A stretch of DNA of 35,545 bases. Source: a virus. Its lineage: Duplodnaviria > Heunggongvirae > Uroviricota > Caudoviricetes. Below are positions 1 to 16,532 of this stretch, one piece after another (positions within the stretch are counted from its first letter, which is position 1; each line of letters begins with the position of its first letter). The notes beneath the pieces are model-generated. The model did no database searches. It was not told where the DNA came from and saw nothing but the letters and a program-made list of their open reading frames with translations. Both the position numbers and the translations under genes were made by a program. The stretch is from positions 1 through 35,545 of the IMG/VR virus record IMGVR_UViG_2698536672_000015; one strand, 5' to 3'.

Positions 1-1077
<1,077 letters not shown>

Positions 1078-1096
1078 TTACATATTGTTTTCTTAT

Positions 1097-1112
1097 TGTG
1101 ATCAAAAACAAC
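1097..1112. promoter_or_regulatory. Candidate CRP half-site (TGTGA-N6-ACAAC) in the csiD upstream region
   Basis: TGTGA at 1097-1101 lies about 120 nt upstream of the csiD ATG in an AT-rich intergenic region; csiD is known to be cAMP-CRP and sigma-S dependent. The right half-site is a poor match. Confidence 0.3.
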
Positions 1113-1504
1113 AAATTAATAACAAATAATGTGAGGGATAAGAATTGGGTTGAAAGGAAATGAATAATTAAAACAATATATTAAGTGTGCTTATACTCTT
1201 TTTCGAACTGGTGGCATTTGTTTAAATGCTATTTAAACTGCTTTTTCAGAGTTCAACTTACTGAGTTCCGTGTCGACTAATGTGAGTAAGATCAATCGCA
1301 TCCAACCTATGTTACTTGATGGAATCGATAACAATATTAATGAATATACAGATTCCGGGAAGGCTGGCTATGGGGGCAAATTATTCTCTTTCTGGCAACG
1401 GGTAAATAACAGTGACCATTTGTCGAGAAGCTGATACTGAGCTGAGGGATACTGTATATGTCTGGACTGTAATTGGATGAATTCTATTCAGGGCGGGTCA
1501 GGAC

Positions 1505-1533
1505 CAATAAAAAAGCCCGCATCAGCGGGCTTT
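1505..1533 (-). terminator. Rho-independent terminator, minus orientation
   Basis: Inverted repeat AGCCCGC/GCGGGCT with a 4-nt loop; on the minus strand it is followed by TTTTTTATTGG. Confidence 0.55.
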
Positions 1534-1741
1534 AATGTCATAGGGAGTCGCGACTCCGTTGCGTATCCTTTTTTGTCTCCTCACCGTCTGGTCGGTGTCC
1601 TGCTGAGACTTATAACTTCCTGTTTTTGTTGGTGTAGTCCTTACACCGTCCAATCATGATTGGCTGGCGGGAGTTGAACCCGAGTCCGTATTTTTATAAT
1701 TAACTGAATAATAAGTGAAAAATGTTTATTTTATCAATTGC

Positions 1742-1767
1742 GGCTCCTTTGCGGAGCCTTTATTGTC
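1742..1767 (+). terminator. Terminator-like hairpin
   Basis: GGCTCC-tttgc-GGAGCC stem-loop followed by TTTATTG on the plus strand; orientation is uncertain. Confidence 0.35.
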
Positions 1768-1829
1768 ACGCAATTGTCTCATTTGAGATATACACAGTTG
1801 ACTTTAAGAGGATATCACTCTTGCAATTA

Positions 1830-2738
1830 TCATCCTTCTGTTGAAGAAAGATTATGATCTGCTTTATCCAAAAGAGGCTTACCTTGAATCATTTTATCTA
1901 TAATATCATTAGATGGATAAGGTATCCCAAGCTCGACTGTATTAGGATTTGCACGATGTGTTTCAACAAACGAAGAGCCGTTCCATTTTTTTGAAAGATA
2001 AATAATTCCTTCAAATGCCGCAGGATCTTGTTTTTGAGACTCAAGGATCATGTGAAACCCTCTACGTTCAATCCCTTTTAGAAAGCTAGAAAAACACTCT
2101 TTAAGCAATTCGTCATCAAGGTCTTTAAATTTAATTCCTTGAGCCAAAAACTCAAAGTAGTTAAGAATATATAAAAGCCCGTTAATAGCATCCCTGTATT
2201 CGTCAGGGACATTCATGTTTTTATATTCTTCTTTATCTGGATTACAACGCCACTCTGATAGCTCTTGTGGAACGTACCGCATTCCGCGATAGAATTTTGT
2301 GCTGTTTCGTAGCTGCTTTTGATACTCTGGGCTTGTTCGTGTGTTGATTATCATATTCAGAGTATGTGTACGTCGAGCGTTTGCTGCTGATGTAATGCAT
2401 TGAATCCACCATCCCATACCTACAAGCATACCTGTGACCATAATAGAAAGAGATGTTTGATAGCTTGGGGTATATCGGAGAATTGCGTATCCGATCAGGA
2501 CAATTGAATAACAGACAGTGCTGAACATCGGAAGGAACTCGGCAGTGTCTGGATATCTTTTTTTAATAAAACAAAAAATAGTTGATATGGATGCTCCCGC
2601 CCCTGAAGCAACAAGCATCCAATCAAGTATGTCCATCTTAAACGGTAAAGTACCAGGGAAAATGTAAGTGTACATACCTCTTGCCAACATCATGACAGCA
2701 AAAAGAGTACAGCAAATTATAACGATGACTCGAGCCAC
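1830..2738 (-). CDS. Hypothetical membrane protein, 302 aa: four predicted N-terminal TM helices plus a soluble C-terminal domain; AT-rich cargo gene
   Basis: Long ORF with a GTG start; hydrophobic N-terminal segments; a 60-nt sample (2101-2160) has 19 G+C (32%) against about 50% in the phage backbone. No family recognised. Confidence 0.6.
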   Translation of the reverse strand: MARVIVIICCTLFAVMMLARGMYTYIFPGTLPFKMDILDWMLVASGAGASISTIFCFIKKRYPDTAEFLPMFSTVCYSIVLIGYAILRYTPSYQTSLSIMVTGMLVGMGWWIQCITSAANARRTHTLNMIINTRTSPEYQKQLRNSTKFYRGMRYVPQELSEWRCNPDKEEYKNMNVPDEYRDAINGLLYILNYFEFLAQGIKFKDLDDELLKECFSSFLKGIERRGFHMILESQKQDPAAFEGIIYLSKKWNGSSFVETHRANPNTVELGIPYPSNDIIDKMIQGKPLLDKADHNLSSTEG

Positions 2739-2760
2739 TTCTTCTACATCCTATAGCAAA

Positions 2761-2781
2761 AGACCTCCAACTAGGAGGTCT
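2761..2781 (-). terminator. Perfect 8-bp stem hairpin, possible terminator downstream of int
   Basis: AGACCTCC-aacta-GGAGGTCT; on the minus strand it is followed by TTTGCTATAGG. It ends only about 22 nt upstream of the 302-aa gene start. Confidence 0.4.
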
Positions 2782-3122
2782 ATGATTGTACTTAAAATTT
2801 GGGGGGTTAGCCTTCGCCGAAACCTACGCTGACAGCCATTTTCATAAACTCTCTCCGCTTTCTTAACTACTTGAAAATAATAGATTTTAGAATTCTTCTT
2901 TGCTTATGGCACAAAGCATATCAGTTTGTACCTGCTTGTATCAAGTCCTATCTACGTCAAATTACAGTCCTGTTATAAACAATTTGATTAAAAATCAATA
3001 CGTTACGATAAACCAAGGAGTGAATTTATATATCGCTAATTAATGTCGCGTAACTATATGATAATAAATGATAAATTCTCATTTGAATTGATTTCTCCTT
3101 CCTGGTTCTAGGATTAGAGACT

Positions 3123-4313
3123 TCAAGTAGTGAAACCTCTTAATTTAATATTAGATGTTTTTTTACCTGAAGAGTTCCCATCATAGTCTTTCAGATATCG
3201 ACCATAGTGCCTGAAAAGCATCTCCGGCCCTTTATGCCCCATTTGAGCTGCAAGCCAAAACAGGTTTGCTCCTCGGCTGATATGGCTGGTGGCGAATGTA
3301 TGCCTAGTTTGATATGGGTTTCTGTAGCGAATACCTGCTTTTCGCAATGTTGGCACCCATGCTTTTTTCCTGATTGCATCAGCACTTGCCCAGGGCTTAT
3401 TGGTCTTTGGATCTTCAAAGACAGTAGCATCCTTCATGAATGTAAATGGCTTCTGATTTATCAGCGCCAACATTGCCTCTTCTGTCAGTTCAACTTTACG
3501 AGTACCTGCTTTTGTCTTTGTCCCTTTGATAACACCAACAACACTTGCGCTCTGGACATGGGCAGTTTTCCCAACAAAGTCGATATCACGCCATCGAAGG
3601 GCACATAATTCAGAACTACGCAGGCCTGTATGTATGGCGAACTGGAACAGATTCTCCCATTGTTTGTTTCCAGCGGCCGCTAGTAATGCATCAACTTCTG
3701 CTGGTGATAGCGGATCAACCACGTAGCTGCTTTCTGCTTCTGACTTATCACTTTGGTAGCGTGAAGCAGTTACTAACGATACGGGGTTAATTTGAAGTAC
3801 CCCATCGGTTACGGCTTCATCAAGTGCTGACCGCAGGAAAGATAACTGGTTGCGAATTGTTTTTAAGGTCGTTTTCTGGCTTTGAATCCACGCTTTCAGG
3901 GTTGCTGGTGTCAATTCACTTGCAGGGCAAATGTGAAGTGAGGCTAACGCACTACGGCATTTTTTATAACCACCAATCGTGGATGGTGAAAGTTTCCTCG
4001 TTTCGCAAATTTCAATATATTCGTCCAGGTACATTTTTACCGTTTTGCCTGCGGCAGCATTACCAAAAATTTTCAAACGAGCAGAACGGGGAAAATATTC
4101 CGCATAAATGAATGTTCCCCTTTCGATCTTATTATGAATTTCGCCGAGTGTACGCTCGGCGTATTTAATGTTCTTTGGAGTTACTTCCAGATTGGAAAGT
4201 GGCTCACGACATTTAACTCCTTTGTAGGTGAAAGTTATATTGATCGTTTCGCCCTGGCGGTGTTTCCTGATTGTTACGCCGCGCGGTAGTTTGAGCAGTT
4301 TTGTCTGGCCCAT
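3123..4313 (-). CDS. int: Phage integrase, tyrosine recombinase with N-terminal arm-binding domain, 396 aa
   Basis: Catalytic-domain motifs HTGLRSSEL and RHTFATS...HYGRY (R, HxxR, Y) in the translation; typical position at the prophage end, overlapping xis. Confidence 0.9.
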   Translation of the reverse strand: MGQTKLLKLPRGVTIRKHRQGETINITFTYKGVKCREPLSNLEVTPKNIKYAERTLGEIHNKIERGTFIYAEYFPRSARLKIFGNAAAGKTVKMYLDEYIEICETRKLSPSTIGGYKKCRSALASLHICPASELTPATLKAWIQSQKTTLKTIRNQLSFLRSALDEAVTDGVLQINPVSLVTASRYQSDKSEAESSYVVDPLSPAEVDALLAAAGNKQWENLFQFAIHTGLRSSELCALRWRDIDFVGKTAHVQSASVVGVIKGTKTKAGTRKVELTEEAMLALINQKPFTFMKDATVFEDPKTNKPWASADAIRKKAWVPTLRKAGIRYRNPYQTRHTFATSHISRGANLFWLAAQMGHKGPEMLFRHYGRYLKDYDGNSSGKKTSNIKLRGFTT

Positions 4314-4480
4314 TTTGCAACCTCACTAAGATCAATCCACCTCTCCTTAACGCCTTCAACCTTTAAAACCTGAACGCCTTCACGCCAAACACCGCGCTGT
4401 ACACGTTTATTTATTGCTTCAGGAGTTTCGCCAGTTTCTTTGCAATAAGTTGAGATAGGAACACAATCGAGGTTCAGCAT
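4274..4480 (-). CDS. xis: Excisionase-like protein
   Basis: Small basic ORF immediately upstream of int and overlapping it by 40 bp; start placed at the ATG at 4480 (MLNLD...) which has a GGAG RBS 6 nt upstream, rather than the GTG at 4492. Confidence 0.6.
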   Translation of the reverse strand: MLNLDCVPISTYCKETGETPEAINKRVQRGVWREGVQVLKVEGVKERWIDLSEVAKWARQNCSNYRAA

Positions 4481-4539
4481 ATGTTTCTCCACTTAACCCG
4501 CTGCACACGGGCAGTAATATCAAATTCCAGTTCTGATAA

Positions 4540-4755
4540 TTAATTTTGTTCTCTGGTTGCTACCTGTTTTATTGGCATGATGCTGTCCAGGAGCAGACGG
4601 CGACGCATGTTTGGCGCACCCCAACGGTAACCAGTCTTTTTGTCGTAGGATTCACAACGTCCGGCAACCCAGGACGTTTCAGTGGAATGTAATTTCATCC
4701 GCTTTTCACCGTCTCGGGTGATAACAATTCCTGTATGAGTTTTTATCACGCTCAT
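4540..4755 (-). CDS. Hypothetical small phage protein, 71 aa
   Basis: ATGA start/stop overlap with the upstream gene (translational coupling). Confidence 0.5.
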   Translation of the reverse strand: MSVIKTHTGIVITRDGEKRMKLHSTETSWVAGRCESYDKKTGYRWGAPNMRRRLLLDSIMPIKQVATREQN

Positions 4756-5114
4756 TTCTTAGTCTCCGGTGCTTTCGGCATTACTGCCCAGTGAGTGATA
4801 TTGACGTTTTCAAGGTCCCCGACCTGAAATGTCCACTGCCATTCTCCGGTTTCTTTTTGCCCCCATGTGTACCAGAGAGAACGCCAGCCAATCAGCCAGC
4901 CTTCTCCATTAGCATCAAATAACAGAACACTTTCATTTGCTGGCGGCAGTTCAGCTGACACGGGTATTACTTTGTTTTCCAGTGCTGCACATTTAGCTTC
5001 AAGCGCATCAAATTTACGCACCAGGTATTCAGCATCTGTTTCATTCACTTTCAGATCTCGCGGTACACATCTCCCACGAAGAAACCCTTCCATTTCGAAA
5101 ACATTCATGCGCAT
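4752..5114 (-). CDS. DUF551-like phage protein (YfdS-like), 120 aa
   Basis: C-terminal motif NITHWAVMPKAPE resembles the DUF551 signature as I remember it; same length as E. coli CPS-53 YfdS. Confidence 0.55.
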   Translation of the reverse strand: MRMNVFEMEGFLRGRCVPRDLKVNETDAEYLVRKFDALEAKCAALENKVIPVSAELPPANESVLLFDANGEGWLIGWRSLWYTWGQKETGEWQWTFQVGDLENVNITHWAVMPKAPETKK

Positions 5115-14565: not shown

Positions 14566-14928
14566 ATGCGTGATATGTATGAAGTATTGGACCGCTGGGG
14601 AGCATGGGCTGCAGCAGAAAATAGTGGTGTGGACTGGCAGCCGATAGCGGCTGGTTTCAAGGGACTTTTACCACACGGTAAAAAGTCACGTCTCCAGTGT
14701 GCTGATGATGAAGGCATCATGATAGACGGTTGTGTGGCTCGGTTGCGAAAGTATAAACCAGAGGAATATGAGCTAATCATAGCTCACTTTGTTATTGGTA
14801 TCTCATTACGCACTATTGCCAAGAAGAGAAGATGTTCAGATGGCACAATTAGGAAGGAATTGCAGACTGCCATGGGGTTTATCAGCGGTGTAATAATAAC
14901 TATAAACCCCATTATGGTAGTTAATTAA
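14566..14928 (+). CDS. Q: Late-gene antiterminator Q (phage 82 / QuuD type), 120 aa
   Basis: MRDMYEVLDRWGAWAA...GFKGL...SRLQCADDEG...CSDGTIRKELQTA matches my memory of QuuD-type Q proteins; start at the ATG at 14566 (RBS GTGGAGAAAG), not the TTG at 14551. Confidence 0.8.
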   Translation: MRDMYEVLDRWGAWAAAENSGVDWQPIAAGFKGLLPHGKKSRLQCADDEGIMIDGCVARLRKYKPEEYELIIAHFVIGISLRTIAKKRRCSDGTIRKELQTAMGFISGVIITINPIMVVN

Positions 14929-15496
14929 TGTGAATCCTATCACCAAGATAGTATAGTCCAAAAAATGTTGAAACAAGCATTTGCCATGTAAGGAATAAAA
15001 AGATAATGATATAGCACCAGTTTGCTATATCATTATTCAGTATGTTTATTAGTGGTGTGATAAAAGCGTTGAAAATCACTATGCATATGCTGAGGGCAGT
15101 TAAAAATGAAAATAACATGCACAGAAATAATCTTCTGGTAAGTTTCTCTTGAGTGTCAACAATTCTACCATTTTCTTTTGTTCGTGTAATTTTAATAAAA
15201 GGAGTGCCATTAGTTCCTATCAGAGGGTAGTCAATTTGTTCTCTGTTGAAAGTGGCTATTGCTGCAAGAGCTGCTATATAAAAACCTGGCAGATTTGATA
15301 CAAATCCAGATATAGACTTAATAAAGCCGCCATCTTTTAGTAGGTCTGATGTAGGTATTTTAAATAAATAAAAGTAAAAAAAAGAAATCACAGCAAGCCC
15401 GGCAGGTGCATAAAAATCGTATGCGCACTTACCACTAATTCCCTTAATGAAAAGGTAACCAAACGGTCTAAATAAATGTGAAAATATACTAATCAT
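14921..15496 (-). CDS. Hypothetical membrane protein, 191 aa, about four TM helices; gene 2 of the AT-rich two-gene cassette
   Basis: Hydrophobic segments AGLAVISFFYFYLF, FYIAALAAIATF, LFLCMLFSFLTALSICIVIF and WCYIIIFLFLTWQMLVSTFFGLYYL; ATG 7 nt after the upstream stop with a GAGG RBS; its stop overlaps the Q stop in TTAATTAA. Confidence 0.65.
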   Translation of the reverse strand: MISIFSHLFRPFGYLFIKGISGKCAYDFYAPAGLAVISFFYFYLFKIPTSDLLKDGGFIKSISGFVSNLPGFYIAALAAIATFNREQIDYPLIGTNGTPFIKITRTKENGRIVDTQEKLTRRLFLCMLFSFLTALSICIVIFNAFITPLINILNNDIANWCYIIIFLFLTWQMLVSTFFGLYYLGDRIHIN

Positions 15497-15503
15497 ATTA
15501 GCC

Positions 15504-16532
15504 TCACATGACCTCGATAATCTTATTCACAAACTCCATGTTAATACTATCATAAGAATCCTTTAAGCGCGAAGAAAAACCATTTATTACACTCTTTTTG
15601 ATAAATGTTTTTTCCAGCCCATCCAGCCTTACATTTGAAGTTTGAAGGTCAACTTGTCTTGTGAATCCTGTCTCTGGCTCTTTGAATTTTATTTTTATTA
15701 AGTCATAACCTCCATTTTTATCTTCTTTAAAGAAGTTTGAGACAGATTTTATCCATCCAAGGACATTGTTGGGGCCATGGTTTGGTACTAAGCGTAAAGT
15801 ACTTTCTTTAGGAATAATAGCCGCGTTAACATCTGGCGCATTAATAGTTCTGTATTCATTCTTTACCAAAACGACATCAGAAAGTCCTTCTTTATTTATT
15901 TTATTGAACAAATCTTCATCTAACTTTCCAGATATATCAAAGACTGGCTTGTATAATACTTTTATTTTTTTCTTTGTTAAACTTGACACTTCATTTGTTA
16001 AAGTGTTACATGAAAAGATATCTTCATTATCTTTGGCTACGTTAAAGAGAACTTTATTCAGGAAACCATTTATTTTTGCTGTGGAAACTCCTGGTATTGG
16101 CATAAAACTCATGTCATACGTTCGCATATTTCCGTCTAGAGAAATAATCATATGAGAAGAAACTTCGTAACCTTCACCTTCCTCATGTTTTGGTGATATT
16201 TCGGTGCGAACATCTGTATTAATGTTTTTTAATACAGTAGTGCTTCCATTTTTATCTACAGCATTAATTAAAAGACCAAGATGGCTGGGTTTTTTATCGG
16301 CTCTGTTTGATAAGAATATTACATCTTGTAAAGTTAAAACTAAGTCTCCTTTTTCATAACTGTGCATCATTGCTTTACAACGTACTATTTTAGAAGCAAG
16401 TTCACGCATTGTTGGTACCGGGCAAACACAGTTCGATCTGATGCTATCATCAATTTTCTGTGTACGGTATTGTGTATCGATCGTAATAGTATGATGAGTT
16501 ATTACTCTACTGAATGCGTCCAGTGTAGCCAT
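15504..16532 (-). CDS. Hypothetical soluble protein, 342 aa, K/N/D-rich; gene 1 of the AT-rich two-gene cassette
   Basis: Long uninterrupted ORF in an AT-rich block (18 G+C in 15001-15060, 30%); no Walker, kinase or other motif I can recognise. Confidence 0.65.
   Translation of the reverse strand: MATLDAFSRVITHHTITIDTQYRTQKIDDSIRSNCVCPVPTMRELASKIVRCKAMMHSYEKGDLVLTLQDVIFLSNRADKKPSHLGLLINAVDKNGSTTVLKNINTDVRTEISPKHEEGEGYEVSSHMIISLDGNMRTYDMSFMPIPGVSTAKINGFLNKVLFNVAKDNEDIFSCNTLTNEVSSLTKKKIKVLYKPVFDISGKLDEDLFNKINKEGLSDVVLVKNEYRTINAPDVNAAIIPKESTLRLVPNHGPNNVLGWIKSVSNFFKEDKNGGYDLIKIKFKEPETGFTRQVDLQTSNVRLDGLEKTFIKKSVINGFSSRLKDSYDSINMEFVNKIIEVM

What the first reader, a model, noticed from the sequence alone, without database searches (positions are those of the whole stretch)
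1830..2738. AT-rich 302-aa membrane protein between the integrase and host csiD: candidate single-gene exclusion or conversion factor
Seen in sequence: GTG-initiated ORF, 32% G+C in a sampled 60-mer, about four N-terminal TM helices followed by a soluble domain of roughly 180 aa; same orientation as int. Established knowledge: the int-proximal end of a prophage is a common site for lysogenic-conversion and superinfection-exclusion genes. I do not recognise the family. It is unclear whether the gene lies inside the prophage (between int and attL) or in a flanking island remnant.
Basis: partly seen in the sequence, partly recalled or inferred. Interest (0 to 1): 0.6.

Follow-up and report, generated by a model that had tools for sequence, protein, structure and literature searches.

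The report
Prophage membrane gene with leader peptide
The ORF is a real prophage cargo gene of unknown function (a four-helix membrane protein of family DUF4760) sitting in a slot where related prophages carry proven anti-phage systems, and it is preceded by a tiny, previously unannotated leader peptide and a terminator conserved across the family.

Summary
ORF 1830-2738 (-) encodes 302 aa with 4 N-terminal TM helices and a roughly 185-aa helical cytoplasmic domain, at 38.5% GC against 49.5% for the window.

It lies inside the prophage, between the attL copy of the ssrA 3' end (1549-1688) and int (3123-4313). Prophage-free E. coli have glaH, 682 bp, then ssrA, with no such gene.

The att-int slot (about 1689-3174) is a swappable cargo cassette. 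Sister prophages carry DarT plus a NADAR antitoxin, AbiL, a PD-Lambda-5-like pair or unknown genes there. Homologues in other genera also sit at prophage ends.

New here: a conserved sigma-70 promoter (2944-2915), then a 12-codon uORF (2845-2807, MKMAVSVGFGEG*), then an intrinsic terminator (2781-2761), lie just upstream of the start codon. In 44 of 45 distinct homologous loci the uORF ends in G-x-G-[E/D/A]-[G/S]-stop. It shows a coding signature, and the terminator stems show compensatory changes.

Most likely this is a tightly gated, prophage-borne membrane effector for phage exclusion or abortive infection. The function is inferred, not shown.

The parts
1..978 (-). Host flank: glaH (csiD), glutarate dioxygenase. 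Not part of the element.
   Evidence: Pfam CsiD, E=4.8e-152. Annotated glaH in all E. coli matches.
1512..1533 (-). Intrinsic terminator native to the region downstream of ssrA. It is the first good - strand terminator downstream of the DUF4760 ORF.
   Evidence: Terminator scan. The region is shared with prophage-free strains next to ssrA.
1549..1688 (.). attL: a copy of the 3' end of ssrA (tmRNA) plus about 112 bp of its downstream sequence. The prophage begins at 1689 at the latest.
   Evidence: The tmRNA T-arm is matched at 1668-1682 (-). A 146-bp direct repeat joins the glaH side and the intact-ssrA side of the homologous prophage in strain G12. The empty site in WP3-W18-CRE-03 reads glaH, 682 bp, ssrA, smpB.
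1689..3174 (.). Variable cargo cassette between attL and the conserved body of int. It includes the last ~17 codons of int.
   Evidence: Homology to sister prophages stops at 1686, 1706 or 1767 and resumes at 3175 or 3180. Alternative cargoes are shown.
1742..1758 (+). GC-rich hairpin between attL and the ORF stop. It is terminator-like on the + strand and partly resembles the start of the att repeat.
1830..2738 (-). DUF4760 ORF, 302 aa: 4 TM helices followed by a cytoplasmic all-helical domain.
2757..2781 (-). Intrinsic terminator in the 5' leader (AGACCTCC-TAGTT-GGAGGTCT followed by TTTTG), ending 22 nt before the GTG start.
   Evidence: Terminator scan. RNAfold stem of -13.7 kcal/mol. An equivalent hairpin is present in 33 distinct sequence versions with compensatory pairs.
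2807..2845 (-). Upstream ORF (leader peptide) MKMAVSVGFGEG*, unannotated, with a GGAG Shine-Dalgarno sequence at 2856-2853.
   Evidence: Coding signature (entropy 0.28, 0.30 and 1.04 bits at codon positions 1, 2 and 3). In IMG/VR, 24 of 36 matches to the motif lie 69-88 nt upstream of a DUF4760 gene.
2915..2944 (-). Sigma-70-type promoter of the cassette: TTGATA, 18 nt, TG-extended TATGCT. The predicted transcription start is near 2908.
   Evidence: Promoter scan. The -35 TTGAT and the -10 TGnTAnnCT are conserved in 14 diverged enterobacterial loci.
3123..4313 (-). Prophage tyrosine integrase (Arm-DNA-bind_2 + Phage_integrase).
   Evidence: Pfam. Annotated as site-specific integrase in homologous prophages.

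Best explanation
This is a self-contained accessory cassette ('moron') carried at the attL-int end of an ssrA-integrated lambdoid prophage.

Shown: the cassette has four parts in order. (1) Its own conserved sigma-70 promoter. (2) A translated 12-codon leader ORF ending in VGFGEG-stop. (3) A strong intrinsic terminator 22 nt before the main start. (4) A 302-aa inner-membrane protein of family DUF4760, with 4 TM helices and a conserved cytoplasmic helical domain.

Shown: the slot it occupies is a recombination-swappable defence hotspot.

Inferred: the protein is a phage-exclusion or abortive-infection effector made by the lysogen. The membrane domain probably acts on the inner membrane, for example by blocking DNA entry or collapsing the membrane potential. 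The cytoplasmic domain probably acts as the sensor or regulator.

Inferred: the leader ORF and terminator keep the gene almost silent. They permit read-through only when translation of the leader is perturbed, which is leader-peptide (ribosome-mediated) attenuation. The signal is unknown.
For: Location inside the prophage.

Cassette boundaries and alternative cargoes in the same slot, directly after the same integrase family:
- DarT (PADLOC 2e-13) plus a NADAR antitoxin.
- AbiLi (4e-101) and AbiLii (5e-29).
- An ATPase plus PD-Lambda-5_B (6e-124).
- Several unknown cargoes.

The same end-of-prophage position is seen in unrelated hosts and phages:
- O26 E. coli and phi467, after an integrase.
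- Cronobacter, int-DUF4760-host at two different sites.
- Dryocola, an intact gene beside a truncated integrase and a CBASS operon.
- P. aeruginosa and phage Riah, and P. tohonis, at the lysis end.
- A Serratia-type genomic island end.
- In 14 of 21 IMG/VR contigs of >=20 kb the gene lies within 2.5 kb of a contig end, against 13.5% expected.

Other support:
- Low GC.
- Conserved promoter.
- The uORF and terminator are present in 44 of 45 distinct loci. They show 3-periodic conservation and compensatory stems.
- The architecture is kept even in distant members whose peptides differ.
- The family is mostly a 2-4 TM region plus the DUF4760 domain.
- There are 61 invariant residues, many of them charged, in TM4 and the soluble domain.
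Against: - There is no experimental or homology-based link between DUF4760 and any function. PADLOC (2023) and NCBIfam give nothing, and PHROGs gives only 'unknown'.
- No paper in the searched library discusses the family's function.
- The structure search gives only moderate all-alpha similarities.
- Occupying a defence hotspot is guilt by association. Prophage ends also carry conversion, virulence and addiction genes.
- For the attenuator reading, no antiterminator structure was found. The duplex between the uORF 3' end and the terminator 5' arm is no better than shuffles. The terminator is predicted to form with probability about 1 with or without a ribosome footprint at the stop codon.
- The distance from the stop codon to the stem varies from 5 to 41 nt, with one outlier of 92 nt. 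This argues against one simple steric mechanism.
Confidence: 0.45

Rival explanations
1. Two-component peptide-protein module. The 7-17-aa peptide is a functional product, an inhibitor or antidote or ligand of the DUF4760 protein. The terminator only sets a high peptide-to-protein ratio. Loss of the labile peptide, for example when an infecting phage shuts off host expression or when the prophage is lost, frees a toxic membrane protein. This would be an addiction- or abortive-infection-type toxin-antitoxin logic.
For: The peptide is conserved at the amino-acid level across genera, with free wobble positions. The terminator is always between the two ORFs. No RNA switch was detectable. The peptide and the gene co-occur.
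Against: The N-terminal part is variable in length and sequence. Only the last 5-6 residues next to the stop codon are conserved. This is the pattern typical of cis-acting nascent peptides. Distant family members keep the architecture but have unrelated peptides. Unprocessed cytoplasmic peptides of 7-12 aa are usually short-lived (own knowledge).
Confidence: 0.15
2. Lysogenic-conversion or receptor-masking factor. The membrane protein alters an envelope component or blocks a phage receptor or entry route constitutively, without killing the cell. This would be superinfection exclusion in the narrow sense, or serotype conversion.
For: It sits at the int-att position, where P22 and Shigella phages carry gtr and oac genes (own knowledge). 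It is an inner-membrane protein. Conserved polar residues lie at the membrane interface.
Against: Pfam gives no hit at E<=1 to GtrA, an acyltransferase, a glycosyltransferase, SieB or Imm families. The conserved domain is predicted to be cytoplasmic. A strong terminator directly before the gene argues against steady constitutive expression. The fold is all-helical with no enzyme-like match.
Confidence: 0.15
3. A gene serving the phage's own life cycle, for example control of lysis timing, membrane remodelling or release, rather than host protection.
For: In Pseudomonas prophages it lies next to the endolysin, Rz and holin region. In Acinetobacter phage TRS1 a short-form relative lies among the tail genes.
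Against: It is absent from most sister prophages of the same type, which carry defence systems in its place. It has its own promoter and terminator and is often in the opposite orientation to the neighbouring late genes. It is retained intact beside a truncated integrase in Dryocola.
Confidence: 0.08
4. A host core or housekeeping membrane protein, or a remnant of a flanking island, unrelated to the prophage.
For: None found.
Against: The empty site lacks it. Only 119 of 5426 complete E. coli genomes have any homologue, and only 1 has it at this locus. It lies on the phage side of the ssrA att fragment.
Confidence: 0.01

Closest known systems
Pfam PF15956 / DUF4760 (uncharacterised membrane-anchored helical domain of bacteria and phages)
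   Same: Residues 106-252 match the model at 60.6 bits, against a gathering score of 25. Homologues are annotated 'DUF4760 domain-containing protein'.
   Different: The window protein is a long form, with three extra N-terminal TM helices and a C-terminal extension. This subfamily has only 24 representatives at E<=1e-30 out of 516. The nearest sequence in 5.8 billion clusters is 90% identical.
Prophage and satellite defence hotspots (P2 and P4 hotspots; int-proximal morons such as P22 gtrABC). Recalled from own knowledge.
   Same: A fixed slot beside int and att is bounded by conserved sequence, with mutually exclusive cargoes. These include DarT + NADAR antitoxin, AbiL and a PD-Lambda-5-like pair.
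   Different: This hotspot is in an ssrA-integrated lambdoid prophage. The recombination boundary runs into the last ~17 codons of int. The DUF4760 cargo itself is not a recognised defence system.
Leader-peptide (ribosome-mediated) transcription attenuators, such as trpL, pheL, erm/cat/ABC-F leaders, tnaC and toiL-topAI. Recalled from own knowledge.
   Same: A Shine-Dalgarno sequence plus a short translated ORF, then an intrinsic terminator, then the regulated gene. The conserved residues cluster at the peptide C-terminus next to the stop codon.
   Different: No antiterminator or anti-antiterminator pairing was detectable. There is no run of one regulatory codon beyond three Gly codons. No Rfam family matches. 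The G-x-G-E-G-stop motif was not found in the searched literature.
Membrane-effector defence proteins: RexB (4 TM), Pycsar and CBASS TM effectors, AbiZ, SieA/SieB. Recalled from own knowledge.
   Same: A small multi-TM inner-membrane protein encoded by a prophage and expressed independently of the lytic genes.
   Different: There is no sequence similarity: nothing in Pfam or PADLOC. No partner sensor gene is present. Its cytoplasmic domain is unlike SAVED, CARF or cNMP-binding domains.
EP domain of plant EDS1/PAD4/SAG101
   Different: Sequence identity is 5-8%, and scores at this level are common between all-alpha bundles. There is no Pfam EP-domain hit and no lipase-like partner domain. This is a lead only.

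Membership tests
Pfam DUF4760 (PF15956) | HMM score above the gathering threshold | tested here: met
   60.6 bits against a cut-off of 25, E=2.5e-16, residues 106-252 covering profile positions 8-141 of 141.
Pfam DUF4760 (PF15956) | A TM anchor directly preceding the helical domain | tested here: met
   TM4 (97-117) runs into one continuous helix, 91-135. Most representatives have 2-4 TM segments.
Prophage moron / accessory cargo | Lies inside the att boundaries and is absent from the empty site | tested here: met
   The ssrA fragment is at 1549-1688. The empty site is glaH-ssrA.
Prophage moron / accessory cargo | Own promoter and terminator, deviant composition, and presence or absence among otherwise collinear phages | tested here: met
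   Conserved promoter. GC of 38.5% against 49.5%. Sister prophages carry other cargo between the same flanks.
Known anti-phage defence systems (PADLOC-DB v2, 2023) | Significant match to a defence-protein HMM | tested here: not met
   Only DrmMII at E=0.004 and 14 bits, which is not credible.
Known superinfection-exclusion or conversion proteins (SieB, Imm, GtrA/B, O-acetyltransferases) | Pfam domain of those families | tested here: not met
   A Pfam scan at E<=1 returns only DUF4760 and a spurious SAMP hit.
Leader-peptide transcription attenuator | A short ORF with a ribosome-binding site in the 5' leader, conserved as coding sequence | tested here: met
   Present in 44 of 45 distinct loci. 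GGAG lies 6-9 nt upstream. Third-position entropy is 1.04 bits, against 0.28 and 0.30 at positions 1 and 2.
Leader-peptide transcription attenuator | An intrinsic terminator between the leader ORF and the regulated gene | tested here: met
   Stems of -11 to -20 kcal/mol followed by a U-tract. There are 33 distinct versions with compensatory pairs.
Leader-peptide transcription attenuator | A mutually exclusive antiterminator structure controlled by ribosome position | tested here: not met
   The duplex between the uORF end and the terminator arm has z about 0. Kinetic or protein-mediated mechanisms were not testable.
Leader-peptide transcription attenuator | Regulated read-through in vivo | not testable with these tools
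   This needs Term-seq or reporter fusions.
EDS1/PAD4 EP domain | Fold match with conserved ligand-binding residues | tested here: inconclusive

The most novel reading that the evidence does not exclude
DUF4760 and its G-x-G-E-G-stop leader peptide form a new kind of single-effector anti-phage system whose sensor is the ribosome itself. In this reading the nascent leader peptide makes termination at its Gly-stop context conditional. When infection perturbs translation (release-factor activity, the tRNA-Gly pool, or transcription-translation coupling), the terminator is bypassed. A membrane effector is then made that aborts the infection. A weaker variant is that the micro-peptide is a trans-acting antidote of the membrane protein.
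Probability: 0.15. Interest if true: 0.8.

Novelty: new variant of a known kind. Interest (0 to 1): 0.55.

Why it matters
If DUF4760 proteins are defence or exclusion effectors, they would add a widespread family to the prophage-borne immune repertoire. The family has 516 clusters at 50% identity, in Enterobacteria, Pseudomonas, Shewanella, Halomonas, Acinetobacter and their phages. It is unrecognised by the PADLOC 2023 models.

The conserved micro-ORF and terminator give a concrete, testable handle on how such a potentially toxic membrane protein is kept silent and then switched on. It would be an example of leader-peptide control outside amino-acid biosynthesis and antibiotic resistance.

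The att-int slot of ssrA prophages is also a well-delimited place to mine for further unknown systems.

Tried and rejected
- **Known-family searches.** PADLOC, NCBIfam and PHROGs gave no functional name. A profile search of PDB sequences gave only chance-level hits, the best being A20 OTU at E=0.099.
- **Other structure libraries.** BFVD gave nothing at E<=0.001. The afdb50 library was unavailable.
- **trp-type or direct antiterminator model.** Rejected.
- **Steric model (a ribosome at the stop codon melting the terminator).** It fits Pseudomonas spacings of 13-16 nt but not enterobacterial spacings of 20-41 nt.
- **The terminator's GGAGG arm as the main Shine-Dalgarno sequence.** It lies about 25 nt from the start codon in the window, which is too far. 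It is plausible only in one distant member, L103.
- **The ATG-TAG mini-ORF at 2749-2744.** It is not conserved.
- **tRNA or tmRNA gene in the window.** ARAGORN found none. Only a T-arm fragment remains.
- **Literature searches.** DUF4760, PF15956 and the peptide motif gave one incidental table entry and nothing on function.
- **Resemblance of T-V-G-F-G-E to the K+ channel signature T-V-G-Y/F-G-D.** I treat this as probable coincidence.

Full report
**1.

The ORF at 1830..2738 on the - strand is 302 aa and starts with GTG. Homologues align from the same N-terminal column, which supports that start. A hydropathy scan finds four TM segments at about 1-22, 40-58, 68-87 and 97-117. Lys and Arg are concentrated in the 58-66 loop and immediately after TM4. 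This predicts N-in/C-in topology and a cytoplasmic C-terminal domain of about 185 aa.

AlphaFold2 with 41 homologues gives an all-helical model with pLDDT 83.6, in which TM4 continues as one long helix (91-135) into the soluble domain. The soluble domain modelled alone reaches pLDDT 93.5. The gene has 38.5% GC, against 49.5% for the window, 44% for int and 55% for glaH (profile).

**2. Where it sits.**

- glaH (csiD) occupies 1..978 (-), and a tyrosine integrase occupies 3123..4313 (-).
- K-12 shares only window 900-1176 with this locus.
- Many E. coli genomes share window 1180-1688 directly next to an intact ssrA.
- One of them (WP3-W18-CRE-03) shows the empty site: glaH, 682 bp, ssrA, smpB, with no integrase and no DUF4760 gene.
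- In the window only a fragment of ssrA remains. The T-arm is at 1668-1682 (-), and ARAGORN finds no full gene.
- In strain G12, which carries the closest homologous prophage, a 146-bp direct repeat links the glaH side to the intact ssrA at the far end of the prophage. The repeat consists of the ssrA 3' end plus its downstream sequence. The window equivalent is 1549-1688.

Everything to the right of 1688 is therefore phage DNA.

**3. The slot is a swappable cargo cassette and a defence hotspot.**

Sister prophages are 95-99% identical to the window up to 1686, 1706 or 1767, and again from 3175 or 3180 onwards. They differ completely in between. The right-hand boundary lies inside the last ~17 codons of int. 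What other strains carry there is listed below.

| Strain | Cargo in the att-int slot | Evidence |
|---|---|---|
| FDAARGOS_1373 | DarT plus a NADAR antitoxin; PADLOC DarT 2e-13 | |
| UTAK-14 | AbiLi (4e-101) and AbiLii (5e-29) | |
| AR76.3 | AAA ATPase plus a methylase matching PD-Lambda-5_B at 6e-124 | |
| CFT073-like strains, R12, UTI89 | Two-, one- and three-gene cargoes of unknown function | |

Only one of 5426 complete E. coli genomes (G12) has a DUF4760 gene at this locus, at 84.7% nucleotide identity. In all, 119 genomes have a homologue somewhere.

**4. The family and its habits.**

The protein matches Pfam DUF4760 (60.6 bits) and PHROGs of unknown function. Nothing matches in PADLOC or NCBIfam. 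The closest protein in 5.8 billion clusters is 90% identical. Full-length relatives of 45-90% identity occur in Enterobacteria, Pseudomonas, Shewanella and Halomonas. A profile search of 1.84 billion representatives finds 516 at E<=1e-3 and only 24 at E<=1e-30. Most have 2-4 TM segments before the domain.

Conservation is highest in TM4 (GMGWWIQ), at the membrane interface (AANARRxHTLN) and through the soluble domain (YFEFLAQGI, DLDDxLLxECF, ERRGFH, ExQK). There are 61 invariant positions.

Homologues recur at the ends of mobile elements:

- directly after an integrase in O26 E. coli and phi467;
- in Cronobacter at two different chromosomal sites;
- in Dryocola, where the integrase is truncated but the gene is intact and a CBASS operon lies nearby;
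- at the lysis end of Pseudomonas prophages and phage Riah;
- at the end of a Serratia-type genomic island;
- as a terminator-flanked insert among the tail genes of Acinetobacter phage TRS1.

In IMG/VR contigs of at least 20 kb, 14 of 21 copies lie within 2.5 kb of a contig end, where 13.5% would be expected.

**5. An unannotated leader ORF and terminator.**

I aligned the 385-bp AT-rich spacer between int and the ORF with G12, O26 and Dryocola. This exposed a conserved 12-codon ORF at 2845-2807 (-), MKMAVSVGFGEG*. It has a GGAG Shine-Dalgarno sequence 6-9 nt upstream. It is followed by a terminator-like hairpin at 2781-2761 plus a U-tract, which ends 22 nt before the GTG start.

Across 91 homologous loci (49 distinct upstream regions, of which 45 went into the uORF tally), 44 carry such an ORF. 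It is 7-17 codons long and ends in G-x-G-[E/D/A]-[G/S]-stop. Examples are VGFGEG, IGYGEG, IGVGEG, GVGAG and VGFGES. The one exception has a 1-nt frameshift in a poor assembly.

Four further observations support a real functional unit:

- **Coding signature.** Over the last five sense codons in 33 distinct sequences, entropy is 0.28, 0.30 and 1.04 bits at codon positions 1, 2 and 3.
- **Conserved terminator structure.** The terminator exists in 33 sequence versions with perfect stems built from different Watson-Crick pairs, for example GACCTCC/GGAGGTC, GGCTTCC/GGAAGCC, ACTCCTC/GAGGAGT and GGCCC/GGGCC. These are compensatory changes.
- **Architecture kept in distant members.** More distant DUF4760 genes keep the Shine-Dalgarno, uORF, terminator and start arrangement with unrelated peptides.
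- **Association with the gene.** A degenerate search for V-G-F-G-E-G-stop in IMG/VR gives 36 hits. Of these, 24 lie 69-88 nt upstream of a DUF4760 gene.

A sigma-70 promoter at 2944-2915 (TTGATA, 18 nt, TG-extended TATGCT) is conserved in 14 diverged enterobacterial loci. No Rfam family matches. The peptide motif is absent from the searched literature. RefSeq does not annotate the small ORF.

**6. How the leader might work.**

The layout is that of leader-peptide attenuators, but I could not find the RNA switch. The G-rich uORF 3' end is not more complementary to the terminator's 5' arm than shuffled sequences are. The terminator is predicted to form with probability about 1 whether or not a ribosome footprint is imposed at the stop codon. 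The distance from stop codon to stem varies from 5 to 41 nt, with one outlier of 92 nt.

The conserved residues are the last five or six next to the stop codon, and the N-terminus is free. I therefore favour a cis-acting nascent peptide that modulates termination or ribosome release, with kinetic coupling to the terminator. Slow release after a C-terminal Gly is reported in the literature, as far as I recall.

The alternative is that the peptide is a trans-acting partner and the terminator only sets stoichiometry. Either way, the gene can be transcribed only by reading through a strong terminator. This implies tight repression, as expected for a toxic membrane protein.

**7. What the protein might do.**

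Three things point to a prophage-encoded exclusion or abortive-infection effector, with the cytoplasmic domain as sensor or regulator:

- the architecture, a multi-TM anchor rigidly joined to a conserved cytoplasmic helical domain;
- the gated expression;
- the company the gene keeps in the slot.

This is an inference, and I give it 0.45. The rivals are a peptide-protein toxin/antidote module (0.15), a receptor or envelope conversion factor (0.15), a phage life-cycle function (0.08) and a host gene (refuted).

**8. Verdict.**

The feature is real, phage-borne and uncharacterised. The conserved leader peptide and terminator are the most interesting and most directly testable result.

Noticed in passing
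window 14921-16532 (-): Two - strand ORFs (191 aa and 342 aa) sit among + strand phage genes. They match the PADLOC candidate defence pair PDC-M53B (1.7e-54) and PDC-M53A (1.3e-31) and have no Pfam hit. This is a second probable defence moron in the same prophage.
   Followed up: partly
window 3123-3179: The last ~17 codons of int differ between prophages together with the cargo. Homology to sister prophages resumes only at 3175 or 3180, and int here is 396 aa against 389-398 aa elsewhere. Cargo exchange therefore recombines inside the int 3' end.
   Followed up: partly
window 2807-2845 (-), and loci L001-L100: The leader-peptide consensus (T/S)-(V/I)-G-(F/Y)-G-(E/D) is the same string as the K+ channel selectivity-filter signature TVGYGD. 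This is probably coincidence in a 7-17-aa peptide, but it is striking.
   Followed up: no
window 1740-1767 versus 1549-1576: A 28-bp stretch just inside the prophage (GCGGCTCCTTTGCGGAGCCTTTATTGTC, a hairpin) resembles the outer end of the att repeat. It could be a remnant of an earlier or tandem integration, or part of attP.
   Followed up: no
window 1549-1688: The attL copy of the ssrA 3' end carries a 5-bp deletion (GTGGA) relative to the intact ssrA end in strain G12, so this copy is a decayed duplicate.
   Followed up: no
L129 (IMGVR_UViG_2974644047_000001) about 1770-1860; L127 about 690-860: Free-standing mini-ORFs MVGFGEG* and MILGIGYGEGISNDEFDGFVGFGEG* have a Shine-Dalgarno sequence and a following terminator, but no close DUF4760 gene within 1.3 kb downstream. 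The leader motif may also serve other genes.
   Followed up: partly
L006 / L055-type loci (O26 E. coli), leader spacer: O26-type leaders have a second ACCTCC copy about 24 nt upstream of the terminator's 5' arm. It could pair with the same GGAGGT 3' arm, giving a possible alternative hairpin.
   Followed up: no
L035 (Enterobacter sp. EA-1, CP025776.1): This genome holds a close homologue of the gene (94% in the best segment). Its uORF has a 1-nt deletion in an A-run, and the ORF hit is fragmented (66% over the N-terminal segment). This could be assembly error or pseudogenisation.
   Followed up: no
L013 (Dryocola sp. BD613) 1-4883: A CBASS operon (SAVED effector, SMODS cyclase, Cap2-like E1/E2, JAB) lies about 3 kb from the truncated integrase and DUF4760 gene. 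The locus looks like a defence island built on a decayed prophage.
   Followed up: no
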